Source of the DNA: a candidate division Zixibacteria bacterium SM23_81
GTDB lineage: Bacteria; SM23-81
DNA: 64,000 nt
Direction: 5' to 3'
NCBI GenBank assembly: GCA_001304015.1
Contig: LJUY01000006.1
Coordinates: 22,605 to 86,604 of the forward strand
Positions within the stretch are counted from its first letter, which is position 1. Every line of letters starts with the position of its first letter. The position numbers were made by a program, and so were the translations under genes. The notes beneath the pieces are model-generated. The model saw only the letters and a program-made list of their open reading frames with translations. It searched no databases and was not told the DNA's origin. Positions 33,515 through 64,000 of this stretch are shown here, in pieces.

Positions 33515-35440
33515 TTACTTGACCAGCAGCATCTTACAAGTTTCCCTGAAATCGCCAGCCTCAAGTGAGCAGAAGTACACTCCACTGGCCACTTCCTCCC
33601 CTCGACCGTTTCTTGCATCCCAAGATATCTGGTACTCCCCTGGTGGCTGATTCTCCTCCACCAGGGTTTTGACCGACTGTCCCAAGGAATTGTATATCCT
33701 TACCTCTACCGGCGCCTCCACAAGCAGATGATAACGAATGTTGGTGGAACCATTGAAGGGATTGGGAAAATTCTGCCACAGCTTATACTTTGAGGGCCTC
33801 GAACCTGATAAGTTGTCAGCAGATCTTTTCAGCTCTATAGCCGTCAGGGAGTGGGCGGGAAATGTATACGAAAAACTCGTATCAACAGAAGCCAAGGTTG
33901 AGTGTATGATGGTGACTGTATTGGGATCGTCCTCGTTATGAGCGGTGATGTCGGGCCCATTCAGAGTCCAAATGTTGGCCTCAGGGTGGGGCTCAAATCC
34001 CACCACCTGGATGGCCACCTCGACATCTTGTTCAAGTTGTTTATTGATCACCATGATATGCAGTTTTTTCTTTGCGGTGTCAATTGAGGTCGCGACGGAC
34101 AGTTCTGGGACTGCGGGCATGGCTGGAACGCAAGAAACTCTAACGGTTGAAAATGTGTTGCAGTCGATGGTGTTGTCAAGCAGCATATCGCCGCAATGTT
34201 CTGTGAACATCTGCTGTGCGTAGTACATTGGCCTTGCGAACCTGCGTGGCGGCCCCCAAGCGTAGCCGATGTGCCCGTGATAGACGTTGGAGCAGAGCAT
34301 CCAGCTGCAGACGAACTCGATATCCCATTCGGGGCCGTCTTCCAAAAACATCATCAGCAAATCGGCGTAATAGAGGCCCGCCAGAAGGCTGACAGCTGAC
34401 TGTTTGCCAGTTTTCTCAAAGTTAATTCCGTTGCTTCCAGCCACAATGCTGATATATGGATCAGCCTCTTGGTTAATAATCTCTCTCAACTCGCCGATGT
34501 CAATGGGCGCCTGTTGTGTTGCCGCCATGCAACCGCGGTATATATCCTCTATATCGTCGGGTAAAGCGTATGTACCAGGGTATCCCGTGTGGATGTCCAA
34601 AAAATCCATATAGCCGCAGGCGATGCTCACCAGGGCGGCGTTCCATTCCAAAGAATCCCCAGATTGAATAAAGTGGGGAATGACGACTCCAGAAACCCCG
34701 ATCTTGATCGTCGGGTCAACGGCTTTCATGGCTTCGGAGAAAGCACAGAAATCTTGTGCGTAGGTGATGACGTCCATGCCCACTTTGGGATTGTGTATCT
34801 CGTCGCCAACAACCCAGTATTTAACGCCGTATGGTTCAGGATGTCCGTTTTCGGCTCTTACTGCTGCCCAATCCGTGCCCCCTCTGGGGTTGGTGCCGTC
34901 GTTGGGCGCATTGCAGTATTCCACCCAATTGGTGGCTCTTTCTATTTTTTGTGTCAGGGGTGCTGTTTTGGATAGGTCACCGTCCATAATGCCAGAGACG
35001 GGATTAACGCAGATAAACGCCTCTGCCCCGATCATTTCGCACAGGGCCATGTGTTCGTCTGTGCCGTAGTGGAAATTACGGTCGGGTTGGCTGGGGCGTG
35101 AGTCTGGTCTGAGGTTATGGGGGCCGATGCCGTCTTCCCAGAAGTATTCATTGGCACCCCCTGGAAATCGCATTATGGTGGGTCGCAGGCCCAATACCAG
35201 CTCCTCGGCCTCTGGCGCAAATCCCCAGACCGTAAGGCTGTCGGGCTGTGTCATATCCAGCAGTCTGTTGCCGTGATGATGGGGTTGCGAGTTGCCCAGG
35301 AAAAGCGGATTAACAGGGCCAAGATACTCATTGGCATAGACGGAAATGGTGGCCGCCGATAACGGGGTCACTAACGGAGGGCAGAAAAACAGGAGAGATG
35401 GGAGAAAAAAGAAGAGAATCGCCTGTGTTGTCCTCCTCAT
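33515..35440 (-). CDS. Secreted TIM-barrel-like glycoside-hydrolase-like protein with T9SS C-terminal sorting domain
   Basis: Signal peptide after the ATG at 35440 (GGAGG Shine-Dalgarno 5 nt upstream). A central ~450-aa domain with alternating beta/alpha character (WVVGDEIHN region). The C-terminal NFPNPFNGSTNIRY...VRIYNSLGQSVKTL...ASGVYFCSLEAG...KMLLVK is a canonical T9SS CTD. The hydrolase family is not assignable by eye. Confidence 0.65.
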   Translation of the reverse strand: MRRTTQAILFFFLPSLLFFCPPLVTPLSAATISVYANEYLGPVNPLFLGNSQPHHHGNRLLDMTQPDSLTVWGFAPEAEELVLGLRPTIMRFPGGANEYFWEDGIGPHNLRPDSRPSQPDRNFHYGTDEHMALCEMIGAEAFICVNPVSGIMDGDLSKTAPLTQKIERATNWVEYCNAPNDGTNPRGGTDWAAVRAENGHPEPYGVKYWVVGDEIHNPKVGMDVITYAQDFCAFSEAMKAVDPTIKIGVSGVVIPHFIQSGDSLEWNAALVSIACGYMDFLDIHTGYPGTYALPDDIEDIYRGCMAATQQAPIDIGELREIINQEADPYISIVAGSNGINFEKTGKQSAVSLLAGLYYADLLMMFLEDGPEWDIEFVCSWMLCSNVYHGHIGYAWGPPRRFARPMYYAQQMFTEHCGDMLLDNTIDCNTFSTVRVSCVPAMPAVPELSVATSIDTAKKKLHIMVINKQLEQDVEVAIQVVGFEPHPEANIWTLNGPDITAHNEDDPNTVTIIHSTLASVDTSFSYTFPAHSLTAIELKRSADNLSGSRPSKYKLWQNFPNPFNGSTNIRYHLLVEAPVEVRIYNSLGQSVKTLVEENQPPGEYQISWDARNGRGEEVASGVYFCSLEAGDFRETCKMLLVK

Positions 35441-35830
35441 GGGAGCCTCCTGAATGGGTAGATGGTGATAGAAAACCATAGGAACCCATTCAAGCTTATT
35501 GCAAGAATCAAGCCAGAAAAAAAAGATACCCAGGAATCCTCCTAAGTATCATTTTTTTACTTTATTACCTCGATGTAAGGACGATAATATTTAAGAAACT
35601 CAGTCCAGATCTGGTTAAGTTATAAACAAAATGACCTCCAATGGATTAGATATGATAATCATGGGAAGATCCGCAAGAAAAAACAGTTCTCCTCCAAGAG
35701 GTTAACGCCCTGACGAAAAATTCACCCAATGTTCAATTGCTGAAAGCCTTGAATGTAAATTGCACATTGATAAATTGAGGCCAGAAATGACCATAACTGG
35801 TCAGATACTTTCACGCAAAGCAGCTCACTT

Positions 35831-36679
35831 TTACTTTTCAATCATGGGCGAAGGTACAAAACTCGCCGCCACCTCAGCGCCAGTTACGACGACTACTCCG
35901 GGGTTGGAAGCGGCGATCTTTATAAAATTTCTAAAAGCCGCTAATCTCCCCTTTTCCTTCCCTAACATCCAGGGATGGAAACCGATGGCAAAACATTTTC
36001 CCAGATGTTCAGGCTGCAAATACATCAACCACTGAGAAAGCATCTCTGGGGGTGATATACCTTTTCTAATATACATCCCATCAGTGCTTACTAGAGGGAT
36101 TCTCAGTATCTTCTCTCCGCGCCCTGGTGTTTCTCCCGCACATTTGATCCAATGCAGATTCTGCCAGGAGGATTTGGACGCTCTATCAATGTTATATCTA
36201 AAGCCAAGCGTGATCAGAATTTTCATCAAGGCATGTGACCAAGCGCCGTATGGGGAGCGAAAGCCCCAAAGCTCTACTGTGAATTTGCGTCTGAAGAACT
36301 CCTTTGCCTTGTGAATATCATAACGCAAATCATCTGCTGACATTTTAAGCGGTGCAACATGTCCAAAAGTATGGCAGGCTATTTCATGGCCATCCCTGAT
36401 GAGGTGTTCGATGGTTTCAGGATATTTCTCAGCAACATGCCCAACGCAATTCCAGGTACTCTTCACTCTATACTCACAGAGAATGCGCAAGATTTCATGA
36501 AAGACGTCAGATGACAATTCGCCTTGCTCGTTCCCAAACTCACGTTCGTAGTCGAAAGACAGAACGAGCCGGATCTTGCCGGAATCCTCGGCTGTCGGCC
36601 GGATGAGTTCGTGGCGCACAGATATATTCCGTATCTTCCGCCTCAAACGGTAAGGAATGAAACCGAACTGTTCAAACAA
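35831..36679 (-). CDS. Polysaccharide deacetylase (NodB-homology domain)
   Basis: NodB-domain motifs IACHTFGHV, a LVLSFDY segment and a RSPYGAW block. Confidence 0.8.
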   Translation of the reverse strand: MFEQFGFIPYRLRRKIRNISVRHELIRPTAEDSGKIRLVLSFDYEREFGNEQGELSSDVFHEILRILCEYRVKSTWNCVGHVAEKYPETIEHLIRDGHEIACHTFGHVAPLKMSADDLRYDIHKAKEFFRRKFTVELWGFRSPYGAWSHALMKILITLGFRYNIDRASKSSWQNLHWIKCAGETPGRGEKILRIPLVSTDGMYIRKGISPPEMLSQWLMYLQPEHLGKCFAIGFHPWMLGKEKGRLAAFRNFIKIAASNPGVVVVTGAEVAASFVPSPMIEK

Positions 36680-36844
36680 GAGTGACCGTCTCCTCCATAT
36701 CTGATACTCATCTCATCAGCGCTAGGCAAATACAACTCATTTTGTCCTCAACAATCACCAAGTTCTTAAAAAAAGTAGAGAGCCCAAGAAGTGTTGCCGA
36801 TGCCCTGTTTTGGTCAGCTAAAATCTATGGGTATTGAGTTAGCT

Positions 36845-37711
36845 TCATATCAACCCTGGTGCCCAATCGAGAAGAATTTCAATAAGATGTTGCTGCTTAC
36901 AAAGCGGCGTAAAGGTATGATCTGTATCTTGAATAACTTCTATCCTTAATTTGCCATATTTCTTCAACTCATGAATCTCATCTCCGAGTCTGCTTTGTAG
37001 GTAGTCCAAACCTCGATCGCCTCCGGAGTAAATAAAGAGAGGGCTAATGCCGCGGGCTGACAATACCTGCAAATCTGCTACCAGATTGTTCGCTCTTGAA
37101 GACATATCTCTTTTACGAACAAACAAGCGCTTTATCTGACTCGTGGTTGATCGTATAATCTGCTGGTAACGAGACTTCCCTTTCATCGCTCTTCGCCAAC
37201 TTTTGAGACTAAACAAGGCACTTCTCCAGTAATGGCGAGCTACTCTGTCATATACCACAGAAGACCGCATCTCTTCATTATCATCAAAATACACCGGAGC
37301 ATTGATGGGAACAACACCCACAACTCGAGGATCACACAAAGCCGCTTTAAATGATATAACTGCTCCAGAACATATGCCAATGAGAATAAATCGATCAATG
37401 CCTCTTGTCGCATTCAGATAGTTCAGCGCTTCCTGGGTTTCGTTAATCGCTCTCTCATCGGAAAGAGATTCAACCTCACTTGCTCTGCTGTCTCCAATTC
37501 CAGAGAAGTCAAATCTCAATACAAAGAACCCTTCCTCAGCCAACTTCCGCGCCGCTTTCACGTAGAGACGATGGGGACCGACTCGATGCAAGAATCCAGA
37601 ATTGAGAAAGACAAACGCAGGAAAGTCATTGCCACTGAAAACCGGAGTTGGCTCGGTAATGATACCAACCAAAGATTTGGTTTTCCCAAAAAGCACAGCT
37701 TTGTCTCTCAT
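36845..37711 (-). CDS. Alpha/beta-hydrolase fold protein (Cys at nucleophile elbow)
   Basis: LRFDFSGIGDS, then nucleophile-elbow sequence GICSG (G-x-C-x-G). Paralogous to the upstream gene and overlaps it by 4 nt. Confidence 0.7.
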   Translation of the reverse strand: MRDKAVLFGKTKSLVGIITEPTPVFSGNDFPAFVFLNSGFLHRVGPHRLYVKAARKLAEEGFFVLRFDFSGIGDSRASEVESLSDERAINETQEALNYLNATRGIDRFILIGICSGAVISFKAALCDPRVVGVVPINAPVYFDDNEEMRSSVVYDRVARHYWRSALFSLKSWRRAMKGKSRYQQIIRSTTSQIKRLFVRKRDMSSRANNLVADLQVLSARGISPLFIYSGGDRGLDYLQSRLGDEIHELKKYGKLRIEVIQDTDHTFTPLCKQQHLIEILLDWAPGLI

Positions 37712-38526
37712 GGGAACATCTCAGAAATCCAGGAGACCACAAACTGCAGTACTTTAATAGGTACCATGCCCTGACCCCAGTCATCCCTTTCAATCCAAGG
37801 TTCAAAACCAGGGATGTGTTTATACCGCAAAGAAACACCAATGCTGTTTAGATGCTCACGAAACCTTCCATCCTCACTCACGTCACTGCTTTCGATGAAC
37901 AGTATTTTGCTAGCCGGTTTCTGCCGAATTGCGTAAAGGTCCAACTTTTCAAGATCTTTCAGCATAGAATCTGGAAGGGGAAACCCAAGCGCTTCTCTGT
38001 AACTTTCTCCTTCGGAGAAGGACTTTACCCCAGGAAAAAAGTTCCTTATCTTTTCCTGATGCAAGGTTGTCAGCTCCTCAATGTATTTCCTTCCATTGAT
38101 AACCGGATTCCAAAGGACTATACCATCAATATCACCTCGTTCGGCTCCAGCCAGCATCGCAAGGTTGCCCCCTAAACGAAGGCCCGCTAAACAAATCTGA
38201 TTCAGATCGCTTCCGCCTTTTAGTTCTTCTACCGCCGTTGATATATCGGCAAGCCATTGGCGAATTTCGCCCTGGTCGCTATCGCCCTCAGAATCACCAC
38301 ATCCGTAATAATCAAACCGTAAGGTGTGAAAACCAGCCGAAGAAAGAAGCATAGCTAATCGTACAAAGGCACGATGAGAACGGATGTAGTCTTCCCCCAT
38401 GGGATAACACAGAATAACTCCAACATTGCGAGCTTTTTCGAGTTGTGGCGGGTGATAAATCCCAAAAAGCGATCTGGCTGAATTCCCGAAATAGAATGGC
38501 TCCATCATATCATACTCAGATATCAC
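37708..38526 (-). CDS. Alpha/beta-hydrolase fold protein, paralog (Arg at nucleophile-elbow position)
   Basis: LRFDYYGCGDS aligns with the partner. The corresponding elbow reads GLRLG (G-x-R-x-G) by hand alignment. Confidence 0.7.
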   Translation of the reverse strand: MISEYDMMEPFYFGNSARSLFGIYHPPQLEKARNVGVILCYPMGEDYIRSHRAFVRLAMLLSSAGFHTLRFDYYGCGDSEGDSDQGEIRQWLADISTAVEELKGGSDLNQICLAGLRLGGNLAMLAGAERGDIDGIVLWNPVINGRKYIEELTTLHQEKIRNFFPGVKSFSEGESYREALGFPLPDSMLKDLEKLDLYAIRQKPASKILFIESSDVSEDGRFREHLNSIGVSLRYKHIPGFEPWIERDDWGQGMVPIKVLQFVVSWISEMFP

Positions 38527-39214
38527 TCCGGTTGTTGGAATCTCCTACTGTCATTCCAGTAAAAATATAGCCTCGATGAAAGAAAAACTTACCCTTATGG
38601 CAAGTTCCCTTCGCAAAAAAGAGATCGGTATCAGCCATATATCTGGCTTCGAACTCACCAATATTTGGATTCACAGAAATGGTTATATCATGAAAATTCA
38701 CCCATCTTTTGCTGGTTGTATATTGACATTTATAAAAGCATTCCTTTGCACTAAAGATAAGAGCGATATATTCTTGCTGAACATCGAGAGGCAAAGAATG
38801 TATCCATGACAACTCTTGTTTGGTGCATATTGCTTTCCAATAATCCCGCTCTAATCTGCCTACACACTCCGCATCGAATCCCACGCTTTCGATCTCTGTT
38901 TTCCGGGCAAGGGCTACTCCACAGTACCCCTCGGTATGGGAGATGCTGCCAATGATACCGGGCGGCCAAATAGGACTTCTGTCAGTGGCCATCAATATGG
39001 GAAAATTTCTTATGGCCACTTGGGCTAAGGCCCTGCGAGCACAGAGACGTCCAGCGATGAATTCTTGTTTTCTTTTGGGCACGGCGTTGCATATGAACGC
39101 CTCTTCTTGGGGATAAAGCGTCCCTTCGCTGAATACAGGATTTGCCTCCTCTGTTATGACTTGATCAGGAAAAAGGCAAGCTATGATGGTATGATCGCAC
39201 TTTTCTGTTAACAT
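38516..39214 (-). CDS. 4'-phosphopantetheinyl transferase (Sfp/EntD type)
   Basis: GSISHTEGYCGVALA and VGFDAE core motifs. Confidence 0.8.
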   Translation of the reverse strand: MLTEKCDHTIIACLFPDQVITEEANPVFSEGTLYPQEEAFICNAVPKRKQEFIAGRLCARRALAQVAIRNFPILMATDRSPIWPPGIIGSISHTEGYCGVALARKTEIESVGFDAECVGRLERDYWKAICTKQELSWIHSLPLDVQQEYIALIFSAKECFYKCQYTTSKRWVNFHDITISVNPNIGEFEARYMADTDLFFAKGTCHKGKFFFHRGYIFTGMTVGDSNNRSDI

Positions 39215-39216
39215 AG

Positions 39217-48116: not shown

Positions 48117-48129
48117 TCAATCTGTGGAC

Positions 48130-48765: not shown

Positions 48766-48784
48766 TTTAGGATCCTCCTTGAAC

Positions 48785-54410: not shown

Positions 54411-54497
54411 TATCCCATCTCCCTTCTATGTATGATTTCTAAAAACAGGTATAGGTCGAATCGAGCATATATTCTCCTCTTCAACTATCCCACCCGG

Positions 54498-57041: not shown

Positions 57042-57780
57042 GAGTATTTTTCACCTCGGGGACTCTCTGTTGCATCTGTTCAATTCCCAGAAGGATCTTC
57101 AACGCCGAGGCCACGTATCCCCACCCATCCCGCATAAATCGAGTTTTAGCCTGCCCCTTTTCTCGAGGTCGATACACCACGGGTATCTCGCCAACGGCCG
57201 CGGAGTCGCGAATGGCATTGTACATGAGGCGGAAATGAAAATCCCCATACCCATAAAAAATCCGATTCAGATCCCATCGATTCAACAGAGATCGTTTAAC
57301 GGCCAGGAATCCATTGGTATTATCGGTTGTCTTCAGTCCCAAGGTAATCTTGAGAAACCAATTGATGGCCAGGCTGAATATGCGGGCCCGGGCGTTCCCC
57401 TGAAAACCCCCCAGGTGCAAGTAGCGAGAGCCACTGACCAAGTCGTATTCCCCCACCTTCAGGAGCAGCGCCGGCAGGTCTTCAGGATTATGGCTGAAAT
57501 CGGCATCCATCAGAACCACAACATCCGCGTAAGATGCTTTAATACCTGCCTTTATCGCGGTGGCCAGACCCCTTTGGCCATTGCGCAAGACGAGCTTGAC
57601 CTGACTCATAGTTGAGCAGTTCTGCCTGACGACATCCGCTGTTCCGTCTGGGCTGTCATCGTCCACCACCACGATCTGGTAGTCGATGCCGGAATCGGCC
57701 ATGATGCGAGAGAGACTCTGGATCAGAGGGACGATGTTCTCCCTCTCATTGTATGTGGGTAGAATTACCGCAACATTCAT
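57034..57780 (-). CDS. Polyprenyl-phosphate glycosyltransferase, GT2 (ArnC/DPM1-like, short form)
   Basis: ILPTYNEREN, VVVDDDSPDGT and LMDADFSH (DXD-equivalent) motifs. 248 aa without C-terminal TM helices. Confidence 0.85.
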   Translation of the reverse strand: MNVAVILPTYNERENIVPLIQSLSRIMADSGIDYQIVVVDDDSPDGTADVVRQNCSTMSQVKLVLRNGQRGLATAIKAGIKASYADVVVLMDADFSHNPEDLPALLLKVGEYDLVSGSRYLHLGGFQGNARARIFSLAINWFLKITLGLKTTDNTNGFLAVKRSLLNRWDLNRIFYGYGDFHFRLMYNAIRDSAAVGEIPVVYRPREKGQAKTRFMRDGWGYVASALKILLGIEQMQQRVPEVKNTHE

Positions 57781-58921: not shown

Positions 58922-60823
58922 TTAAAAGTAATACCAGATGGTCCTGTAATCATCCAAGTTCTCACCCATCTCCTCAAGGCGTCTCAGATAGCTCAGGATG
59001 GGGACATCTACGTGGATGAAGCTATCCACTGGAGAGATGTTCCGCTCCCAGGGAAAAAATTCGTAGATTCGCCGACCATCTGGGGTCAACATGATCACGT
59101 CGTGATCCTGCCAAGCGATAAGGTAGCTTTTTCCCAACCGGGGAACGTTGAAGACGGCGGCATCAGAGCGGACCATTCCCGAGAACAGCCGAACTTCCTC
59201 CCTTTTTTCCTGAAGCAGCCGAGCAATGGGAGCCCGGTAGGACTCCGTCTCCTCTTTTCCTTTGGCGACAAAGGTGTAGTAAGGTTCGATGCCTATAACC
59301 CGCAATTGTCGTCGAAGAGCTGCGCTTTCAAACCTCCTACTGTTGTATGTGGTAAAGACCAGCTGATTGTACACCGGGATGCCCCTGCGACGAATTCTGG
59401 CCACAGCCATGACCATCTCTGGAGTCACCTCGTAGAGGTGCTCCACGTGGGTAACTACGACGATCTCCCTTTTAGCTGGCACGTGGTACTTGCCCAGCAG
59501 GCTCACCAGAGAGGCTGTGAACCTCTGAGGGATGGTAACCAGAAGCCGCGTTCCTAGCCGAATCCGCTCTACATGGTCAATCTCGCTGAGGTTTCTCAAA
59601 AGAGCGTCGAGCTTATTGTCGCTCATCACCAGGGGATCTCCACCGGTGACCAGCACCTCTCTAATGGCCGGATGGTTCCTGATCCAGGTGAGCGCCGCCC
59701 TTATCGCCTTTTGGGAAGCCAAGGCCCGAGGGCCCAGCACCTGATGAATCTCCCAATTTCTCTGGCAGTAAACGCAGATCTGCGGACAAGAGTTATAAGG
59801 CTTAAAAGCCACAATCTGCGGATAGCGTCTGGTGATCAAATCCATGGGAGAGGTGTCATGCTCGCCCATATAGTCCGCGGAGAGTTCTCGATCCTTTTTA
59901 TGCTGGATCATCCAACTTACATAGCTTTCCGGGGGAATAACCTGAGCCCTGATGGCGCGATCGTTTCGGTGGCTGTCAGTCCTGTCTAGCAGAGATAAGT
60001 AAAATGGCGTAATGCCAAAAGGGAGGCCGTTGGCTCGGGCACGTGCAATCTGCCGGCCCTCTTCCTCGGTCAGTTCCACCAGGCAGTTCAGGGTTCGCTC
60101 ATCTCGAATGACCTGTTGTAGATGCCAATGCCAATCATCCCAATCCTTCCTCCGGCTACTAAAATAGCGCAGGATCCGTTGTCTGTTTCGCTGGCGTCTC
60201 CTAACTACCTTGGGGTTCAGACCCGATGGATAGCGTGCCATGAACCTGTCCATAGAACGGTACATGCCATCTAGAAGTCGGGACCTCGCCTGAGCGGCTC
60301 TCCTCCCTCTCATGTCCAAGTAAGTCGGACGCCTCATATGGTCGTAGATGCCGGATTGGCCACTTATTCCCCGGAAAAGGTGGATCAGATCCTCCACGAA
60401 ATCCTCGGTCACCGACTGCAAAACCTCCACATCATCACCCCTAATTAGGTGATACAGATAATAGAGAGAACTCACACCGGTGACCTTTTCATTCCGTTTG
60501 GCCAGAATATTCCTGAACACGGCCAAGCACTCCCGTATGTTCGCTCGCTCCAGGTACTGGGTCTCTTTGAATCCCATCTCCAAAGCTCTCTGCTGGCTGT
60601 CCAGGAATTGATAGAGGCGACGGCGGGCTTCCTCGAGACTCCTGCTCCGGGATAGGATAGTGCAGATTTGCGGAGACGCATTCTTGAGCCGTTGTAGCAA
60701 GGACTTCTCCATCTGCATTGGTTCAGAAGAAGCTTGACCCACTTTGCTCTTGGTCGAAACCCCCGTTTCGGTCACGGTTTGTCCTCCGTTAGTTTCTGGG
60801 GCAATCGGAGACCTCGGGAACAA
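58922..60823 (-). CDS. KamA-family radical SAM aminomutase with ~215-aa Arg-rich N-terminal extension
   Basis: CPQICVYCQR (C-x3-C-x2-C), a KamA-like region (DWDDWHWHLQQ, ITPFYLSLLDRTD) and downstream GGDPL. Several internal Met residues make the exact start uncertain. The ORF overlaps the upstream gene by 35 nt. Confidence 0.8.
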   Translation of the reverse strand: MFPRSPIAPETNGGQTVTETGVSTKSKVGQASSEPMQMEKSLLQRLKNASPQICTILSRSRSLEEARRRLYQFLDSQQRALEMGFKETQYLERANIRECLAVFRNILAKRNEKVTGVSSLYYLYHLIRGDDVEVLQSVTEDFVEDLIHLFRGISGQSGIYDHMRRPTYLDMRGRRAAQARSRLLDGMYRSMDRFMARYPSGLNPKVVRRRQRNRQRILRYFSSRRKDWDDWHWHLQQVIRDERTLNCLVELTEEEGRQIARARANGLPFGITPFYLSLLDRTDSHRNDRAIRAQVIPPESYVSWMIQHKKDRELSADYMGEHDTSPMDLITRRYPQIVAFKPYNSCPQICVYCQRNWEIHQVLGPRALASQKAIRAALTWIRNHPAIREVLVTGGDPLVMSDNKLDALLRNLSEIDHVERIRLGTRLLVTIPQRFTASLVSLLGKYHVPAKREIVVVTHVEHLYEVTPEMVMAVARIRRRGIPVYNQLVFTTYNSRRFESAALRRQLRVIGIEPYYTFVAKGKEETESYRAPIARLLQEKREEVRLFSGMVRSDAAVFNVPRLGKSYLIAWQDHDVIMLTPDGRRIYEFFPWERNISPVDSFIHVDVPILSYLRRLEEMGENLDDYRTIWYYF

Positions 60824-61946
60824 GGTTCTCTCCCCTGGAGACAGACTCGATGGAGGGTGCCAGCAGTCCCTTTTTCCGGGACATCATCCGAACCAAACGG
60901 GTCAGACCGGTTCCATACGTGACTAGTCCGCTCACTAACAGCAAGGACCAGTAACATATCAAACGACTGGTGAGAATGGTGACACCTCTGAATGCCCTGG
61001 CTAACCCGATGAGGGAGAACAGGGAGAACTGAACGGCATCGATCTGTCCCACAGCGCCTGGCGTGATGGGAATAGTGGCCACTAAGTTGACCGTGAAAGA
61101 AACGAAAGCCACCCAGGGCCATGGCAGGGGATAGTCCAGGGCCATAAGCACCAGATACGTGACCAAAGCGTCACAGAACCATATGATCAGCGTGAGGAAA
61201 AACGCCAGGAGTATCCGCCCCCGGTTTCTGGCGATGAGTCGCACATTGTCCATCAACCGAAATATGAAAAAGATAAACCTTTGATACCTTGCCGAGGCAA
61301 ATACACCCCGTAGCCTTTTCTCCGTTTTGGGCACGAAATACAGGAACATCAACAACAGGAGAAAACAGGAGAAGGTCACTTGATACAGGCTCAAGATCCA
61401 CCTGGGTAGCCCAAAGCTGAGGATGAAAAAGCTGAACACGAGGGAACAACTCAGGATAACAAACCCATCCAGGCCACGCTCCACGAAAATGCTGCCCAAT
61501 CCGACTCGAAGGGAGATCTTCCGATCGCTTCTCAGCAGATATGCCCGGGCGACATCGCCAGCCCTGGCGGGCACAACAGCGCTGATGAACCAGCCGACCA
61601 ACAAATAGGAAAAAAGCGTGACGGAGGATAGCTTTTGATCCAAAGCCCCCAAGAGAAGCTTCCAACGCAGCGTGCGCACCGCAAAGGAAGAGTAATATAA
61701 TGCAAAAGCAGCCACAATGAACCGTGGGTCCAGAGTCCGAAACTTCTCCCAGGACGCCTGGAAACCAGACAGCTTTAAGATGGCCAAAAAGGTCACCACT
61801 CCCAAGGCGACCAGAGTGGCTGCCCGTCGCATGCTGACCTTCTTGGAAACTGGAAAAGCCCCTGTTGACATCAGCTCAATTCCCACGATCGTACTCGCTG
61901 CCCCTCTCCACGGGATTGAAGGTCCCCCTGGTGATGAGACAGACAA
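60789..61946 (-). CDS. Polytopic membrane protein, flippase-like (LPG-synthase TM-domain / UPF0104-like)
   Basis: About 8 hydrophobic helices with an RWKLLL motif region. This is the family that commonly partners with GT2 enzymes. The likely start is the ATG at 61871 or 61832. Confidence 0.6.
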   Translation of the reverse strand: MSVSSPGGPSIPWRGAASTIVGIELMSTGAFPVSKKVSMRRAATLVALGVVTFLAILKLSGFQASWEKFRTLDPRFIVAAFALYYSSFAVRTLRWKLLLGALDQKLSSVTLFSYLLVGWFISAVVPARAGDVARAYLLRSDRKISLRVGLGSIFVERGLDGFVILSCSLVFSFFILSFGLPRWILSLYQVTFSCFLLLLMFLYFVPKTEKRLRGVFASARYQRFIFFIFRLMDNVRLIARNRGRILLAFFLTLIIWFCDALVTYLVLMALDYPLPWPWVAFVSFTVNLVATIPITPGAVGQIDAVQFSLFSLIGLARAFRGVTILTSRLICYWSLLLVSGLVTYGTGLTRLVRMMSRKKGLLAPSIESVSRGENLVPEVSDCPRN

Positions 61947-63237
61947 ATGGGTAAATCATCTCCACGACAAAGGGCAGCGGGTCTTCCAGCGCAAAATCGT
62001 CATAGGATGTGTCACGCCGAAAAAATTTCAGGTAATCCAAAAGGACCCTATGCTGGCTTATGGGCCTTCTGAGATAGTCGCACAGGGCCCGCCAGTCGCC
62101 CCAAAGCCAGCGCGTCTTGACGCCCAGTGGATATTCTAATACGGGATCAACATCCCCATCCACGGCCATGCGATACAGCAAATAAGGGAAGTCAACCCCA
62201 GAGGCGACACCCTGGTACAGCGAGCCCCAAAACCGCGGATTGATCTCCATGAGAACCGGCCCCCGGTCCTCGGTGAGAGTAAACTCAGCCTCGGCGATGC
62301 CGTGCCATTCCAAGCGCTCCAGAACTTGATGGGCAATCTGCTCCATCGCGTCGTTCCTGACGCTGGTTCGCAACACCGCTGTGCCTCCCTCAATAGGGAA
62401 CTCTCGCAAGAACTTGAAGGTGAATTTTGCGCGCAGTTTTCCCCGATTATACAACATGCATACCGAGTGTTTGGCACCCGCCACGTACTCCTGGATAACG
62501 GGCGCATCTTCTGGCTGGAACCCAAATCGAGATGTCAGCTCCCCATAGGCCTCCTTTAGCTCCCTAGAGGAGTTCACGTAACGAAGTCCAAAGGCTCCGT
62601 GAGCTCGCCGCGGTTTGACCACTGCCGGATAGCTGAGCTCGTCAGCGATCTCCTCCAGCTCTTCTATCTGGCCAACATGGTAAGTTTTGGGGATGGGTAT
62701 TCCCAACTGCTGGGCCAAAGCATAAAATCGATCCTTAGAATGAAGAGTCATAATCTGGTCGTAGTCGGGCAGAGGAACTTTCAATACAGGCGTCAATCGG
62801 TCTCGATAGCGAGCGATGATGAAACCCTCCTCATGCATGGGCATTAGCACGCGACACCCGAACTCTCGAGCCTTCCGGGCCAGAGTTTCAATAAACCGCT
62901 CCGGGTACAGGTATGGCGAGGGGTAGACGAATCGGCCATGACAATATCGAGAGTAAAAACACATAGACGGGGAAAAGCTATCTCCCGCCACGACCTTAAT
63001 TCCTCTCCGGGATAGGCTCTTGAGGGCCGTATAGGCCATCCGATTTCTCCCAAAAGTGACCAGAGCGCTCACAATGGTGATACCCCCGGTGGGCAGATCT
63101 CCTTTGCCCGAGAACTGAGAGAGGAGCTGAGATTCATGGGCCTGATGTGCCTCCATGGTCAGGAGATTTGCCTTCCTCCCCACCATGCCAAACTTCTTCT
63201 TCCGTGGCCATCTTGGTCTCCCAGACCCAGCGACCAC
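61876..63237 (-). CDS. ATP-grasp domain ligase
   Basis: The central fold shows KVVAGD pre-ATP-grasp, AVVKPRRAHGAFG and EINPRFWGS (the E-x-N motif). The start is probably an internal Met at about 63156. Confidence 0.7.
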   Translation of the reverse strand: MVAGSGRPRWPRKKKFGMVGRKANLLTMEAHQAHESQLLSQFSGKGDLPTGGITIVSALVTFGRNRMAYTALKSLSRRGIKVVAGDSFSPSMCFYSRYCHGRFVYPSPYLYPERFIETLARKAREFGCRVLMPMHEEGFIIARYRDRLTPVLKVPLPDYDQIMTLHSKDRFYALAQQLGIPIPKTYHVGQIEELEEIADELSYPAVVKPRRAHGAFGLRYVNSSRELKEAYGELTSRFGFQPEDAPVIQEYVAGAKHSVCMLYNRGKLRAKFTFKFLREFPIEGGTAVLRTSVRNDAMEQIAHQVLERLEWHGIAEAEFTLTEDRGPVLMEINPRFWGSLYQGVASGVDFPYLLYRMAVDGDVDPVLEYPLGVKTRWLWGDWRALCDYLRRPISQHRVLLDYLKFFRRDTSYDDFALEDPLPFVVEMIYPFVCLITRGTFNPVERGSEYDRGN

Positions 63238-64000
63238 CGTTCTGCCGATACCAGTCGATGGTCCGTCCTAATCCCTCCTCAAGCGATATCTGAGGCCGCC
63301 AGTTAAACAGGGTCATGGCCTTAAAATAGCTGCAATTCAAGCGCTCCACGTCCAATGGACGGAGTCTGACCTTTTCAACCTGGATGTCAACTTGCTGTCG
63401 TTCCATAAGTCGAGCGATGATCTGGGCCAGCTCCTCCACAGACCAATCCCGTCCTTGTCCCAGGTTGACCACTTCACCCACGGCCTTATCGCACTGCATC
63501 AGCTCGATGGCCCCTTTGACAGCGTCGTCCACGTATGTCAAGTCTCTTCGGGCTTTCACGTTCCCCAGCTTCAGACGATTGCCCCTGTCCAGCTGCGTAA
63601 TCAGCTCGGGGATGATGTAGGGGTGTGTTTCGCGAGGGCCATAAGTATTGAACTGGCGCAGGATAATGATGGGCAGATTTTGCTCCTTGTACAAACTATA
63701 GCAGAGCCTATCGGCGGCCAGCTTGCTCACGGCGTAGGTGGAACAGGGCCTCAGGGGATGGTGTTCGTCCATGGGCACATATCGTGCGCTGCCATAAACC
63801 TCCGAGGAGGAATACTGGAGAACCCTCTGAACCCCGGCATCTTTGCAGGCCAACATCACGTTTAAAGCCCCAGTGGCGTTTACCTCAAAGAACTTGCGAG
63901 GTCGGTCGTAACAATGCGGGATGTAAGGCTCGGCGGCCAAATTGAACACGCAGTCAATTCCATTCTGGCGCATAATGTCATTCAGGTTCGGATCTAAGAT
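63134..64000 (-). CDS. NAD-dependent sugar-nucleotide epimerase/dehydratase (extended SDR; UXS / ArnA-C-terminal-like). The 5' end lies beyond the window.
   Basis: FNLAA, Y-x3-K (YAVSK) and RQFNTYGPRE motifs. The reading frame continues upstream of the first in-frame ATG to the window edge. Confidence 0.8.
   Translation of the reverse strand: MLDPNLNDIMRQNGIDCVFNLAAEPYIPHCYDRPRKFFEVNATGALNVMLACKDAGVQRVLQYSSSEVYGSARYVPMDEHHPLRPCSTYAVSKLAADRLCYSLYKEQNLPIIILRQFNTYGPRETHPYIIPELITQLDRGNRLKLGNVKARRDLTYVDDAVKGAIELMQCDKAVGEVVNLGQGRDWSVEELAQIIARLMERQQVDIQVEKVRLRPLDVERLNCSYFKAMTLFNWRPQISLEEGLGRTIDWYRQNGGRWVWETKMATEEEVWHGGEEGKSPDHGGTSGP

What the first reader, a model, noticed from the sequence alone, without database searches (positions are those of the whole stretch)
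33515..64000. About 30 kb of uninterrupted co-directional genes linking NRPS, sulfate activation and Arn-like lipid-carrier glycosylation
From the window edge at 64000 down to 33515 every gene is on the minus strand, with many 4-13-nt overlaps and only three short intergenic gaps. Gene order is SDR, ATP-grasp, flippase-like, KamA, DegT, GT2, GT-C, BNR lipoprotein, sat, GT4, PF01663, PF01663, cysC, PF01663, MbtH fusion, NRPS, NRPS, PPTase, hydrolase, hydrolase, NodB deacetylase, T9SS-sorted hydrolase-like protein. The NodB-type deacetylase could act as an ArnD-like deformylase/deacetylase. Read as one unit, the array predicts a sulfated envelope glycoconjugate, probably lipid-anchored, carrying an aminoacyl or dipeptidyl decoration. 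The array appears to extend past the window end.
Basis: inference. Interest (0 to 1): 0.8.

Follow-up and report, generated by a model that had tools for sequence, protein, structure and literature searches.

The report
Mosaic sulfated surface-glycan locus with NRPS
This is a large cell-surface sugar-polymer gene cluster from an uncultured sediment bacterium (Zixibacteria), built from a conserved backbone plus swappable blocks, one of which is a small peptide-synthetase module; it matters mainly because its sulfate-activation genes sit next to uncharacterised enzymes that are paired with sulfate activation in many phyla.

Summary
The array continues at least 10 kb past the window into a Wzx/Wzy/PF00953 polysaccharide locus. 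There are seven intergenic gaps of 87 nt or more, not three. The window as a whole is 90% minus-strand, so co-directionality is weak evidence for one unit.

Comparison with related Zixibacteria shows a mosaic. The block SDR x3, ATP-grasp, flippase-like, KamA-family, DegT, GT2, GT-C, BNR, sat is conserved, and so is PF01663-cysC-PF01663. The NRPS block (35.8-46.5 kb) is kept in one species-level relative. It is absent at that position in two others.

The amino sugar is probably a 4-amino-4,6-dideoxyhexose, not Ara4N. The aminomutase carries a glutamate-type signature, not a lysine-type one.

The two "hydrolases" resemble the exosortase-associated EPS pair. One has a Cys nucleophile, which suggests peptidyl transfer to the glycan.

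The central PF01663 protein is 45-64% identical across more than 20 phyla. It sits next to cysC or sat in about half of the loci examined, and its function is unknown.

Verdict: a new variant of a known kind.

The parts
63134..64000 (-). SDR, LegB-like NAD-dependent 4,6-dehydratase. The gene starts at about 64177, outside the window.
   Evidence: Pfam Epimerase/GDP_Man_Dehyd. The full 347-aa protein from L007 has LegB as its best NCBIfam hit, 271 bits, below the 475 cutoff. 81% identical in L099.
61876..63186 (-). ATP-grasp ligase (436 aa), the candidate amide-forming enzyme.
   Evidence: Pfam ATP-grasp_3 and ATPgrasp_Ter. Gene call of 436 aa. 69% identical and syntenic in L099.
60789..61832 (-). 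Flippase-like membrane protein (LPG_synthase_TM / TIGR00374).
   Evidence: PF03706, 162 bits. TIGR00374, 145.6 bits, above the 43.2 cutoff.
58922..60775 (-). KamA-family radical-SAM aminomutase (617 aa) with an N-terminal extension of about 200 aa and a glutamate-type substrate signature.
   Evidence: TIGR00238, 317 bits, above the 199 cutoff. Best subfamily is glutamate 2,3-aminomutase, 238 bits, below the 650 cutoff. CxxxCxxC at 330-337. LAM D293 is K505 and D330 is N543. PDB 2A5H, 141 bits.
57777..58907 (-). DegT-family sugar aminotransferase, LegC/PseC-like.
   Evidence: PF01041, 392 bits. LegC 305, PseC 282 and ArnB 236 bits, all below their cutoffs.
57034..57780 (-). GT2 polyprenyl-phosphate glycosyltransferase-like (ArnC/GtrB/AglJ type).
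   Evidence: PF00535. Best NCBIfam hits are AglJ (70 bits) and ArnC (66 bits), far below their cutoffs. Overlaps DegT by 4 nt and GT-C by 8 nt.
55560..57041 (-). GT-C fold glycosyltransferase (PMT_2 family).
   Evidence: PF13231, 50.9 bits. Agl23-type TIGR03663, 64 bits, below cutoff. No PDB sequence match.
54498..55529 (-). BNR/Sortilin-repeat protein, probable lipoprotein.
   Evidence: PF15902. F510_1955-family glycosylhydrolase, 116 bits, below the 175 cutoff. N-terminal hydrophobic stretch ending in AISC. Follows GT-C in the relatives as well.
53259..54410 (-). ATP sulfurylase (sat).
   Evidence: PF01747, 313 bits, plus PUA_2. 76-88% identical in the relatives.
51974..53146 (-). GT4 glycosyltransferase in a variable segment.
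   Evidence: Pfam Glycos_transf_1 and Glyco_transf_4. Only 57% identical in L095. Replaced by other genes in L010 and L121. GC 0.41.
50458..51951 (-). PF01663 paralogue A (cytoplasmic NPP/alkaline-phosphatase superfamily).
   Evidence: PF01663, 136 bits. No signal peptide. Catalytic residues conserved in alignment A1.
48785..50170 (-). PF01663 paralogue B, the member conserved across phyla.
   Evidence: PF01663, 169 bits. 45-64% identical in more than 20 phyla. AlphaFold model pLDDT 89. NPP/PhnA fold at 11-17% identity. D14, T52, D206, H210, D262, H263 and H413 conserved.
48130..48765 (-). APS kinase (cysC).
   Evidence: PF01583, 211 bits. Lies directly between PF01663-B and PF01663-C here and in many phyla.
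46755..48116 (-). PF01663 paralogue C.
   Evidence: PF01663, 163 bits. Homologues at 39-56% identity sit beside B-type genes in 17 of the 80 genome loci.
45825..46457 (-). MbtH-like protein fused to a C-terminal domain of about 100 aa of unknown function.
   Evidence: PF03621, 62.8 bits. The C-terminal part hits CBF_beta, 32 bits. No PDB match. 78% identical in L095.
42498..45704 (-). NRPS module 1: C(DCL-like)-A-T.
   Evidence: Pfam C, A and T domains. The C domain is closest to the McyB N-terminal C domain, 419 bits. HHALLDG at 145. A-domain code DLFTNALTYK. 94% identical in L095.
39217..42501 (-). NRPS module 2: TubC_N docking domain-C(LCL-like)-A-T, with no TE or R domain.
   Evidence: Pfam. 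MHHIISDGWS at 190. A-domain code DAFVNALIWK. The protein ends about 40 aa after the T-domain serine motif.
38516..39214 (-). Sfp-type 4'-phosphopantetheinyl transferase.
   Evidence: 4PPT_N, 96 bits, plus ACPS, 55 bits.
37708..38526 (-). Alpha/beta-fold protein 'hydr2-like' with Arg at the nucleophile position (G-L-R-L-G).
   Evidence: Best NCBIfam hit TIGR03101 (hydrolase 2, exosortase A-associated), 104 bits, below the 203 cutoff. The motif is conserved in L095 and L029.
36845..37711 (-). Alpha/beta-fold protein 'hydr1-like' with a Cys nucleophile (G-I-C-S-G), the candidate peptidyl transacylase.
   Evidence: Best NCBIfam hit TIGR03100 (hydrolase 1, exosortase A-associated), 99 bits, below the 168 cutoff. 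G-x-C-x-G is conserved in L095 and L029.
35831..36679 (-). NodB-family polysaccharide deacetylase, part of the variable NRPS block.
   Evidence: PF01522, 69 bits. Best NCBIfam hit is the XrtA-system polysaccharide deacetylase, 66 bits, below cutoff. No ArnD hit. 79% identical to the L095 copy and unrelated to the NodB of L010 and L121.
35525..35550 (-). Terminator-like hairpin (11 bp) followed by T8, between NodB and the T9SS gene.
   Evidence: The total number of such sites in the region is not above the shuffled expectation, so position and strength are the only argument.
33515..35479 (-). Alpha-L-arabinofuranosidase-like glycoside hydrolase with a T9SS C-terminal sorting domain, probably its own transcript.
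   Evidence: Alpha-L-AF_C, ASD1_dom and Por_Secre_tail. TIGR04183, 33 bits, above the 23 cutoff. Homologue at the same position in L010, L013 and L095. Terminator-like site at 33488-33469.
29324..30364 (+).
   Evidence: Sulfotransfer_3, 125 bits, and Sulfotransfer_1. 62% identical homologue at the same position in L010. L095 instead carries a different sulfotransferase inside the array.
30779..31741 (+). SAM-dependent methyltransferase, GC 0.35.
   Evidence: Methyltransf_23. GC.
32109..33287 (+). GDSL/SGNH protein with a weak AlgX-like region, a candidate O-acyl transferase or esterase.
   Evidence: Lipase_GDSL_2, 45 bits. ALGX, 20 bits, below cutoff.

Best explanation
The region is the downstream two-thirds of a surface-glycan locus of 45 kb or more (O-antigen, capsule or EPS type, Wzx/Wzy-dependent) in a Candidatus Zixiibacteriota genome. 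It is a mosaic of conserved modules and swappable blocks, not one fixed operon.

Module 1, shown at family level. A LegB-like 4,6-dehydratase and a LegC/PseC-like aminotransferase make a nucleotide-linked 4-amino-4,6-dideoxyhexose.

Inferred step. An ATP-grasp ligase N-acylates this sugar with a beta-amino acid made by the KamA-family aminomutase. The K/N signature points to beta-glutamate rather than beta-lysine.

Module 2, works like Arn/Gtr (architecture shown, substrates inferred). The GT2 enzyme puts the sugar on undecaprenyl phosphate. The MprF-type flippase-like protein moves it across the membrane. The GT-C enzyme adds it to the acceptor in the periplasm.

Module 3. sat and cysC make PAPS, and a canonical sulfotransferase (29324-30364, + strand) uses it. 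The three cytoplasmic PF01663 enzymes are glycan-tailoring or PAPS-handling enzymes of unknown reaction. They are catalytically intact, and the pairing of this family with cysC and sat is conserved across phyla.

Module 4, lineage-specific. MbtH, two C-A-T modules and a PPTase build a short T-domain-bound peptide of two residues, the first Ala-like. With no TE domain, the peptide is probably taken over by the Cys-nucleophile 'hydr1' protein together with its partner 'hydr2' and transferred to the glycan. This would resemble carrier-protein-dependent aminoacylation of envelope polymers (Dlt, AlmEFG).

The T9SS-sorted glycosidase-like protein is a separately transcribed companion that is conserved in the locus.
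For: Locus type:
- Wzx, Wzy_C, PF00953, GT4s and RmlD lie directly upstream on the same strand. RmlD scores 273 bits, above its cutoff.

Organism:
- The closest genome locus is Candidatus Zixiibacteriota, 83%.
- A KamA homologue is named Zixiibacteriota.

Backbone co-conservation:
- L099 and L010, from one 257-kb contig, carry Wzx, GT4, two PF01663 genes, SDR x3, ATP-grasp, LPG_TM, rSAM, DegT, GT2, GT-C, BNR, sat, then PF01663, cysC, PF01663, PF01663, sulfatase-like, T9SS AFase, sulfotransferase and Omp85-peptidase.
- Identities there are 48-81%.
- The same right-hand flank, the Omp85 peptidase, is present in the window at 25962-28781.

NRPS block:
- Retained at the same position in L095-L098, with NRPS1 at 94%, above sat at 88%.
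- It has no TE domain, exporter or regulator.
- Its two alpha/beta-fold proteins best match the exosortase-A EPS-associated hydr1/hydr2 pair.
- The GxCxG and GLRLG motifs are conserved, and a similar pair sits next to a PF01663-cysC glycan locus in a Methylomirabilota genome.

Sulfation:
- sat, cysC and Sulfotransfer_3 are present.
- A sulfotransferase is also present in L010 and L095.

PF01663:
- No signal peptide and a conserved bimetal site with a Thr nucleophile.
- NPP/PhnA fold.
- cysC is adjacent in 19 and sat in 12 of the 41 genome loci that have at least 3 kb on both sides.
- One ORF fuses sat to PF01663.
- Homologues lie in glycosylation clusters with GT4 genes, 'sulfatase' genes and a PAPS-reductase-family gene on haloarchaeal megaplasmids.

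Aminomutase signature.
Against: - No product, transcript or enzyme assay exists. All substrates are inferred from family membership, mostly below equivalog cutoffs.
- The NRPS block is missing from two related lineages. It lies behind a 297-nt gap and could be an unrelated cargo of a hypervariable region.
- NRPS1 starts with a DCL-like elongation C domain, but no upstream module, carrier or acyl ligase is visible in the locus. The initiation chemistry is therefore unexplained.
- hydr1 and hydr2 score below the TIGR03100 and TIGR03101 cutoffs. No exosortase or PEP-CTERM gene is seen in the window.
- The long KamA-family protein occurs alone in unrelated contexts in other phyla, so its link to the sugar pathway rests on Zixibacteria synteny only.
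- The acceptor of the GT-C enzyme (polysaccharide, lipid A or protein) is unknown.
- The role of PF01663 is undetermined. A canonical sulfotransferase already accounts for PAPS use in this locus.
Confidence: 0.6

Rival explanations
1. Chance juxtaposition. The NRPS block (MbtH to NodB) is an independent small secondary-metabolite cassette that landed in a recombination-prone variable region of the glycan locus. It makes a free dipeptide or short lipopeptide that has nothing to do with the glycan.
For: - The block is absent at the homologous position in L010 and L013.
- It is preceded by a 297-nt gap.
- The closest NRPS1 homologues outside the lineage are generic modules at 55-63% identity. One of them (P0134) sits in an unrelated context.
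- The GC content of the block is heterogeneous, 0.44-0.52.
- None of the 80 cross-phylum PF01663 loci has an NRPS nearby.
Against: - There is no TE or R release domain, no exporter and no regulator in the block.
- The two alpha/beta-fold proteins best match an EPS-associated pair, and a similar pair recurs beside another PF01663-cysC glycan locus.
- The block keeps the same position and orientation in a species-level relative, with NRPS1 more conserved (94%) than sat (88%).
- A NodB-family polysaccharide deacetylase is the last gene of the block.
Confidence: 0.22
2. Glycopeptidolipid-like product. The NRPS makes an N-acylated dipeptide that serves as the aglycone. The 6-deoxy and amino sugars, the methyl group, the O-acyl group and the sulfate are then added to it, as in mycobacterial glycopeptidolipids.
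For: - An MbtH gene lies directly upstream of two NRPS genes, as in GPL loci. MbtH is required for GPL production (PMC3537567). GPL loci hold about 30 genes in 65 kb (PMC1885439).
- RmlD, GT4s, a methyltransferase, a GDSL-type protein and a sulfotransferase are present in the same locus.
- The N-terminal C domain of NRPS1 is also similar to the PvdL C domain (about 300 bits). From my own knowledge, that domain follows an acyl-loading module.
Against: - There is no fatty-acyl-AMP ligase, PKS, terminal reductase or TE domain, and no MmpL-type exporter.
- The locus has a complete Wzx/Wzy/PF00953 polymer pathway and an Und-P/GT-C side-branch system. These point to a polysaccharide, not a lipopeptide core.
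- Relatives keep all the sugar genes without the NRPS.
Confidence: 0.08
3. The PF01663 trio is not glycan-tailoring. These proteins would be nucleotide-handling housekeeping partners of PAPS metabolism, for example PAP 3'-phosphatases or APS/PAPS pyrophosphatases that remove inhibitory by-products. sat and cysC would simply feed the canonical sulfotransferase.
For: - NPP/PhnA-type fold with an intact phosphoryl-transfer site.
- In Syntrophobacterales the PF01663-cysC-PF01663 set sits among unrelated housekeeping genes, with no glycosyltransferase nearby.
- The very high cross-phylum conservation, 60-64%, fits a universal small-molecule substrate.
Against: - There are three to six divergent paralogues (about 30% identical to one another) per glycan locus. 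That fits regiospecific tailoring better than by-product removal.
- Glycosyltransferase-like genes lie close by in Brocadiaceae, Chthoniobacterales and Methylomirabilota, and PF01663 homologues lie among annotated glycosyltransferase genes on haloarchaeal megaplasmids.
- Among the 80 genome loci, only one (L070) has a match to the window's sulfotransferase within 10 kb. Divergent sulfotransferase families could have been missed by this test.
Confidence: 0.3

Closest known systems
Arn (PmrHFIJKLM) pathway for L-Ara4N modification of lipid A
   Same: The logic is the same. A DegT-family aminotransferase makes an amino sugar. A GT2 enzyme loads it on undecaprenyl phosphate. A dedicated flippase moves it. 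A GT-C enzyme transfers it in the periplasm. A NodB-family deacylase is encoded in the locus.
   Different: - There is no ArnA. The dehydratase is LegB-like and scores 58 bits on ArnA against a cutoff of 777.
- There is no formyltransferase.
- The aminotransferase and the GT2 are far below the ArnB and ArnC cutoffs.
- The flippase is MprF-TM type, not ArnE/F.
- NodB gave no ArnD match and belongs to the variable NRPS block.
- An ATP-grasp ligase and an aminomutase are added.
Three-component periplasmic glycosylation systems (GtrA/GtrB/GtrC type; own knowledge: Mann and Whitfield 2016)
   Same: A polyprenyl-phosphate GT2, a flippase and a GT-C enzyme are encoded together inside an O-antigen or EPS locus to add a side-branch sugar after export.
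   Different: The flippase is a 347-aa LPG_synthase_TM protein rather than a small GtrA. The donor sugar is probably an N-acylated 4-amino-4,6-dideoxyhexose.
Carrier-protein-dependent aminoacylation of envelope polymers (DltABCD; Vibrio cholerae AlmEFG, PMC4278540)
   Same: An adenylation domain loads an amino acid on a phosphopantetheinyl carrier, and the residue ends up on an envelope glycolipid or polymer. AlmEFG adds glycine or diglycine to lipid A.
   Different: - Here there are two full C-A-T modules with MbtH and an Sfp-type PPTase.
- There is no MBOAT or AlmG-type acyltransferase.
- Transfer would go through a Cys-nucleophile alpha/beta-fold protein. This step is inferred.
Exosortase A (XrtA/PEP-CTERM) EPS loci with the 'hydrolase 1 / hydrolase 2' pair (TIGR03100, TIGR03101)
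   Same: Two adjacent, mutually divergent alpha/beta-fold proteins sit next to an AMP-binding enzyme with a carrier domain inside a polysaccharide locus. NodB and GT4 also have XrtA-system families as their best hits.
   Different: All scores are below the family cutoffs. No exosortase or PEP-CTERM protein is seen. The AMP-binding partner is a two-module NRPS rather than a single acyl-CoA ligase (the latter from my memory of the TIGRFAM descriptions).
Mycobacterial glycopeptidolipid loci (PMC3537567, PMC1885439)
   Same: MbtH and two NRPS genes are embedded among deoxy-sugar, glycosyltransferase, methyltransferase and acyl-transfer genes for an outer-envelope glycoconjugate. Sulfated GPL variants exist (own knowledge).
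   Different: There is no PKS, FAAL, reductase or MmpL. A Wzx/Wzy polymer pathway and a GT-C system are present. The phylum and envelope type are different.
PAPS-dependent sulfation of bacterial glycans (NodPQ/NodH; sulfated EPS such as synechan; own knowledge)
   Same: sat and cysC are dedicated to a glycan locus together with a Sulfotransfer_1/3-family enzyme.
   Different: Three NPP-type PF01663 paralogues are interleaved with cysC. This partnership is conserved across more than 20 phyla and was not described in any paper I could find.

Membership tests
Wzx/Wzy-dependent surface polysaccharide locus | Wzx flippase, Wzy-type polymerase or ligase domain, and an initiating polyprenyl-phosphate sugar-phosphate transferase | tested here: met
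   Polysacc_synt (Wzx), Wzy_C and PF00953 are called on the same strand 1-7 kb upstream of the window end on the source contig. Precomputed Pfam hits only.
Wzx/Wzy-dependent surface polysaccharide locus | Chain-length regulator or export proteins (Wzz, Wza/Wzc) | not tested
   None seen in the 74 kb visible. About 16 kb more of the contig upstream could not be fetched.
Arn (L-Ara4N) pathway | ArnA: UDP-GlcA oxidative decarboxylase fused to a formyltransferase | tested here: not met
   The three SDRs score 32-58 bits on ArnA (cutoff 777). Their best hits are RmlD, GalE-like and LegB-like. No formyltransferase is present.
Arn (L-Ara4N) pathway | ArnB, ArnC and ArnD orthologues | tested here: not met
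   DegT scores 236 bits on ArnB (cutoff 631). GT2 scores 66 bits on ArnC (cutoff 529). NodB gave no ArnD hit at E <= 0.001.
Arn (L-Ara4N) pathway | GT-C transferase acting on lipid A | not testable with these tools
   PMT_2 family membership only. The acceptor is unknown.
Three-component (GT2 + flippase + GT-C) periplasmic glycosylation | The three genes encoded together and co-conserved | tested here: met
   LPG_TM, rSAM, DegT, GT2 and GT-C are contiguous here and in L099. GT2 and GT-C overlap by 8 nt.
KamA family / lysine 2,3-aminomutase | Radical-SAM CxxxCxxC motif, and family HMM above cutoff | tested here: met
   TIGR00238 at 317 bits, above the 199 cutoff. C330, C334 and C337 align to LAM C125, C129 and C132. 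The LAM PLP lysine (K337) fell in an alignment gap, so the PLP site was not confirmed.
KamA family / lysine 2,3-aminomutase | The two Asp residues that bind the lysine epsilon-ammonium (LAM D293, D330) | tested here: not met
   K505 and N543 occupy those positions.
Glutamate 2,3-aminomutase (TIGR04368) | Equivalog score above cutoff | tested here: not met
   238 bits against a cutoff of 650. The K/N pattern matches what I recall for this enzyme, but the protein is a distinct long clade of about 600-650 aa.
Non-ribosomal peptide synthetase assembly line | C, A and T domains with intact core motifs, a PPTase and MbtH | tested here: met
   Pfam domains. HHxxxDG motifs and GGHS carrier serines are present.
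Non-ribosomal peptide synthetase assembly line | Initiation module and a release domain (TE, R or terminal C) | tested here: not met
   NRPS1 begins with an elongation-type C domain. NRPS2 ends at its T domain. No other carrier or A domain was found in the locus.
Exosortase-A-associated hydrolase 1 / hydrolase 2 (TIGR03100, TIGR03101) | Score above the family cutoff | tested here: not met
   99 bits against 168, and 104 bits against 203. These are nevertheless the best hits.
Exosortase-A-associated hydrolase 1 / hydrolase 2 (TIGR03100, TIGR03101) | Presence of XrtA/EpsH and PEP-CTERM proteins in the genome | not testable with these tools
   Only one contig is available.
NPP / alkaline-phosphatase superfamily (PF01663) | Bimetal ligands and a Thr nucleophile; the fold | tested here: met
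   D14, D206, H210, D262 and H263 are invariant in alignment A1. T52 and H413 are nearly invariant. Foldseek matches ENPP1/3/6, Xac NPP and PhnA at E about 1e-15 and TM 0.52-0.60.
PAPS-dependent sulfotransferase (Sulfotransfer_1/3) | Family HMM above cutoff, encoded in the locus | tested here: met
The protein at 29324-30364 scores 125 bits on PF13469 (cutoff 27).
T9SS cargo | C-terminal Por_Secre_tail sorting domain | tested here: met
   TIGR04183 at 33 bits (cutoff 23), and PF18962 at 27.4 bits (cutoff 27).

The most novel reading that the evidence does not exclude
The cytoplasmic PF01663 (COG3379-type) proteins interleaved with cysC and sat could be a new, widespread class of sulfuryl-transfer or PAPS-dependent glycan-tailoring enzymes of the alkaline-phosphatase superfamily. 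They would work through a covalent Thr intermediate, much as phosphoethanolamine transferases do for phosphoryl groups. This could supply the missing sulfotransferases of many bacterial and archaeal (including haloarchaeal) sulfated glycans.

A second, independent novelty is a Cys-nucleophile/pseudo-hydrolase pair that off-loads an NRPS-bound peptide onto a polysaccharide.
Probability: 0.2. Interest if true: 0.85.

Novelty: new variant of a known kind. Interest (0 to 1): 0.55.

Why it matters
Sulfated and amino-acylated surface glycans shape how sediment bacteria bind metals, resist phage and feed the sulfated-polysaccharide pool that other microbes degrade. For most phyla the enzymes that install these groups are unknown.

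This locus gives three testable leads:
1. A PF01663-cysC-sat partnership that is conserved from Zixibacteria to Chloroflexota, Planctomycetota and Verrucomicrobiota. More distant PF01663 homologues sit in glycosylation clusters on megaplasmids of cultured haloarchaea. There is no literature on either.
2. A possible route by which an NRPS decorates a polysaccharide, through a Cys-dependent alpha/beta-fold transacylase.
3. A long KamA-family clade with a glutamate-type pocket that may be a source of beta-glutamate.

None of these overturns current concepts. Each would fill a real enzymological gap.

Tried and rejected
- Rfam and tRNA scans of the window found nothing.
- Sigma-70 promoter and terminator scans were not above the shuffled expectation. 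Only the position of two hairpins was used.
- The one metagenome-contig scan, with PF01663-C as query, returned only 26-41% paralogues and no close relatives. The frequency of the NRPS block among Zixibacteria could therefore not be counted.
- The last contig look-up (P0002, 86% relative) ended just after cysC, before the informative junction.
- Literature searches for PF01663 plus sulfotransferase, for COG3379, and for alkaline-phosphatase-superfamily sulfotransferases gave nothing relevant.
- I recalled that Haloferax volcanii Agl7 might belong to this family. Agl7 is needed for sulfation of dolichol-phosphate-hexose (PMC3892788). Its family could not be verified: the supplement is not held, and other papers are silent. 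This is a lead only.
- Sequence searches of the PDB for PF01663-B, for GT-C and for the MbtH C-terminal domain found nothing.
- I looked for a remnant of the L095 sulfotransferase in the 287-nt gap at 50170-50458. There is none.
- I considered the long KamA-family protein as a marker of the sugar module across phyla. This was rejected because it stands alone in Fidelibacterota and in Methanotorris.
- I considered a lipoinitiation starter C domain for NRPS1. The closest solved relatives are instead N-terminal elongation C domains of McyB, TycB and SrfA-C type.

Full report
OBSERVATION

Between 33515 and 64000 there are 22 consecutive minus-strand ORFs. In transcription order the genes are:
- SDR (63134 to beyond 64000)
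- ATP-grasp (61876-63186)
- LPG_synthase_TM flippase-like (60789-61832)
- KamA-family radical SAM (58922-60775)
- DegT (57777-58907)
- GT2 (57034-57780)
- GT-C/PMT_2 (55560-57041)
- BNR/Sortilin (54498-55529)
- sat (53259-54410)
- GT4 (51974-53146)
- PF01663-A (50458-51951)
- PF01663-B (48785-50170)
- cysC (48130-48765)
- PF01663-C (46755-48116)
- MbtH fusion (45825-46457)
- NRPS1, C-A-T (42498-45704)
- NRPS2, TubC_N-C-A-T (39217-42501)
- Sfp-type PPTase (38516-39214)
- two alpha/beta-fold proteins (37708-38526 and 36845-37711)
- NodB (35831-36679)
- an alpha-L-arabinofuranosidase-like protein with a T9SS tail (33515-35479)

The claim of 'only three short intergenic gaps' is wrong. Seven gaps are 87 nt or longer, and three of them are 287, 297 and 351 nt. 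The 351-nt gap holds an 11-bp hairpin followed by T8 at 35550-35525.

Co-directionality is weak evidence on its own. 35 of the 39 genes in the window are on the minus strand. These include 11 unrelated genes such as dnaE, a lytic transglycosylase and a TonB-dependent receptor. GC skew is negative throughout.

WHERE IT COMES FROM AND HOW FAR IT EXTENDS

Exact-protein look-ups place the window on a 111.7-kb ENA contig. Contigs carrying the identical DegT protein in the same gene order also occur in JGI sample 3300002052 (SMTZ1_10000122) and in other JGI samples.

Upstream of the window, on the same strand, lie a GalE-like SDR, RmlD (273 bits, above cutoff), Wzx, Wzy_C, a PF00953 initiating transferase and GT4 genes.

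The closest genome locus is Candidatus Zixiibacteriota, at 83% for PF01663-B. A KamA homologue is likewise named Zixiibacteriota.

Downstream, on the + strand, lie three more genes: a canonical sulfotransferase (29324-30364; Sulfotransfer_3, 125 bits), a methyltransferase (30779-31741) and a GDSL/AlgX-like protein (32109-33287). After these comes an Omp85-peptidase gene that also flanks the locus in relatives. The functional locus therefore spans about 29.3 kb to beyond 64 kb and is not limited to one strand.

Gene GC in the locus is 0.35-0.55, against 0.55-0.59 in the housekeeping part of the window. From my own knowledge, low GC of this kind is typical of glycan loci.

(a) A relative on a 257-kb JGI contig (L099 and L010), with 48-81% protein identity, has this order:
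- Wzx, GT4, PF01663, PF01663
- SDR x3, ATP-grasp, LPG_TM, KamA-family, DegT, GT2, GT-C, BNR, sat
- NodB', an unknown gene, a GH127-like gene, Epimerase_2, GT4
- PF01663-B, cysC, PF01663-C, PF01663, a sulfatase-like gene
- T9SS AFase, then a sulfotransferase on the opposite strand, then the Omp85 peptidase
. The Arn-like block and sulfate activation are thus co-conserved, but there is no NRPS.

(b) L013 (NCBI GCA_975963555.1, 82-83% for PF01663-B) likewise goes from the PF01663 genes straight to the T9SS gene.

(c) L121 (86%) shares the NodB'-to-GT4 segment, but its contig ends before the junction.

(d) L095-L098 keep the block MbtH, NRPS1, NRPS2, PPTase, abH2, abH1, NodB in the same place. Identities there are PF01663-B 90%, sat 88%, NRPS1 94% and NRPS2 88%. 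These loci carry a different sulfotransferase inside the array, where the window has its 287-nt gap, and they have a different downstream flank.

Conclusion: conserved modules are separated by at least three variable regions. These lie between sat and PF01663-B, between the PF01663 genes and the T9SS gene, and between the T9SS gene and the Omp85 peptidase. The NRPS block occupies the second. It is a lineage-specific accessory. It is maintained across a species-level split, with its largest gene more conserved than sat.

THE ARN-LIKE MODULE

The last SDR is LegB-like, a 4,6-dehydratase (271 bits). DegT is LegC/PseC-like (305 and 282 bits; ArnB 236 against a cutoff of 631). None of the SDRs resembles ArnA (58 bits or less against 777), and there is no formyltransferase. 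The sugar is therefore most likely a 4-amino-4,6-dideoxyhexose and not Ara4N.

GT2 has polyprenyl-phosphate glycosyltransferases (AglJ, ArnC) as its best hits, at low scores. The 347-aa membrane protein passes the TIGR00374 flippase-like model. GT-C is a PMT_2 family member.

The locus therefore works like Arn or Gtr three-component systems, but it is not a member of the Arn family.

The KamA-family protein passes TIGR00238. However, it has K505 and N543 where Clostridium lysine 2,3-aminomutase has the lysine-binding D293 and D330. Its best subfamily hit is glutamate 2,3-aminomutase. I infer an acidic substrate, giving beta-glutamate rather than beta-lysine.

The adjacent ATP-grasp enzyme is the candidate that couples this amino acid to the sugar amine or to a uronate. 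From my own knowledge, N-aminoacyl 4-amino-4,6-dideoxy sugars are known in O-antigens. This step is inference.

The window's NodB is not orthologous to the NodB that follows sat in the relatives, and it gave no ArnD hit.

SULFATE MODULE

sat and cysC are unambiguous. A canonical sulfotransferase is present in the window, in L010 and in L095. Sulfation of the glycan is thus the simplest reading.

The three PF01663 proteins lack signal peptides. They keep the bimetal ligands and the Thr nucleophile. PF01663-B, the one modelled, folds as an NPP/PhnA-type enzyme (pLDDT 89; Foldseek E about 1e-15 at 11-17% identity).

PF01663-B is unusually conserved:
- It is 60-64% identical to proteins from Syntrophobacterales, Chloroflexota, Poribacteria, Brocadiaceae, Nitrospirota and Latescibacterota, and 45-55% identical to proteins from other phyla including cyanobacteria and some archaea.
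- Across 80 genome loci, the families found most often near it are cysC, sat and further PF01663 paralogues. Among the other families, the most widespread is a sulfatase-like protein found in 12 loci.
- Among the 41 loci with at least 3 kb on both sides, cysC is adjacent in 19 and sat in 12. The median PF01663-B to cysC spacing is about 90 nt.
- One ORF joins the sat C-terminus to a B-type PF01663 through a 14-residue linker.
- In the plasmid collection, all 48 matching records carry haloarchaeal genus names where the output names them.
- Of two megaplasmid hits inspected, the Halopiger one sits among GT4 genes, 'sulfatase' genes and a PAPS-reductase-family gene. The Haloterrigena one sits among a glycosyltransferase, an epimerase and a polysaccharide deacetylase.

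I found no paper on this partnership. The reaction is unknown. Two readings remain open: sulfuryl transfer or glycan tailoring, and PAP or PAPS housekeeping.

NRPS BLOCK

Both modules have intact HHxxxDG motifs and carrier serines.

The N-terminal C domain of NRPS1 is closest to the N-terminal C domain of McyB (419 bits). TycB and SrfA-C are also among its hits. It is an elongation, DCL-like type, yet no upstream module is present. NRPS2 begins with a TubC_N docking domain and ends at its T domain, with no TE or R domain.

The Stachelhaus codes were extracted against a GrsA reference that reproduces DAWTIAAICK. They are DLFTNALTYK and DAFVNALIWK. The first is one residue away from the code I recall for Ala (DLFNNALTYK). 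The second I cannot assign.

The two 'hydrolases' best match TIGR03101 and TIGR03100, the exosortase-A EPS-associated hydrolase 2 and hydrolase 1, below cutoff. abH1 has G-x-C-x-G, a Cys nucleophile. abH2 has G-L-R-L-G, with Arg at the nucleophile position. Both motifs are conserved in L095 and in a similar pair beside a PF01663-cysC glycan locus in Methylomirabilota.

Taken together, three features favour the view that the T-bound peptide is handed to the glycan through a thioester on abH1, rather than released as a free metabolite. The block has no TE domain, no exporter and no regulator. Its alpha/beta-fold pair is of an EPS-linked type. It ends with a NodB-family polysaccharide deacetylase. 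This is inference. Known analogues in principle are Dlt and AlmEFG (PMC4278540). The rival models are a mycobacterial GPL-like product (PMC3537567, PMC1885439) and an unrelated cassette.

TRANSCRIPTION UNITS

Overlaps of 4-11 nt tie together DegT-GT2-GT-C and NRPS1-NRPS2-PPTase-abH2-abH1. The larger gaps are candidate internal promoters. The T9SS gene is bracketed by terminator-like hairpins at 35550-35525 and 33488-33469, so it is probably transcribed on its own. No transcript data were available.

VERDICT

This is a mosaic Wzx/Wzy surface-glycan locus of a Zixibacterium. It has a co-conserved amino-sugar side-branch system and a PAPS module. It also has a lineage-specific NRPS block whose link to the glycan is plausible but unproven.

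It is a new variant of a known kind. The most novel element is the uncharacterised PF01663-cysC-sat partnership, which is conserved across phyla.

Noticed in passing
window 58922-60775; homologues P0260, P0266 and others: The long (about 600-650 aa) KamA-family clade is 48-54% identical across many phyla. It has K where LAM has D293, checked in eight homologues. One of these is from Methanotorris igneus, an organism that accumulates beta-glutamate (PMC1224877). That review notes, however, that early NMR work argued against an aminomutase route. In Fidelibacterota and Methanotorris the gene stands alone in unrelated contexts. It could be an unrecognised beta-glutamate synthase.
   Followed up: partly
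window 36845-37711 and 37708-38526; L029 1-2499: The alpha/beta-fold pair has a Cys nucleophile (G-x-C-x-G) in one member and Arg at the nucleophile position (G-L-R-L-G) in the other. Both features are conserved in a Methylomirabilota pair next to another PF01663-cysC glycan locus. This looks like a transacylase with a pseudo-enzyme partner rather than two hydrolases.
   Followed up: partly
protein P0062 (JGI, 2.66-kb contig): A single ORF joins the C-terminal 115 residues of an ATP sulfurylase (the contig edge truncates the N-terminus) to a full B-type PF01663 protein through a linker of about 14 residues. This is either a true fusion or a sequencing artefact.
   Followed up: partly
L123 (Halopiger xanaduensis pHALXA01, 35335-54636) and L122 (Haloterrigena turkmenica pHTUR04): The plasmid-collection matches to PF01663-B carry haloarchaeal genus names where the output names them. 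In Halopiger the gene sits among GT4 genes, 'sulfatase' genes, a PAPS-reductase-family gene and NDP-sugar genes. These are cultured hosts in which the family could be tested.
   Followed up: partly
window 45825-46457: The MbtH-like protein carries an extra C-terminal domain of about 100 residues. Its only hit is Pfam CBF_beta (32 bits, cutoff 25). There is no PDB sequence match. The fusion is kept in L095.
   Followed up: no
window 50170-50458 compared with L095 4066-5480: A relative carries a 294-aa Sulfotransfer_1 gene exactly where the window has a 287-nt non-coding gap. No remnant of that gene is detectable in the window.
   Followed up: yes
window 30779-31741: The methyltransferase gene has GC 0.35, the lowest in the window. 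Housekeeping genes nearby are at 0.55-0.59. This suggests recent acquisition.
   Followed up: no
window 16339-19314: A 991-aa minus-strand ORF lies between a PorV-like gene and a TonB-dependent receptor and has no Pfam match at all.
   Followed up: no
L010 15154-17190; L099 1579-4620: The relative that lacks the NRPS block carries five PF01663 genes plus a 678-aa sulfatase-family gene in its version of the locus. The number of alkaline-phosphatase-superfamily paralogues varies between versions of the locus.
   Followed up: no
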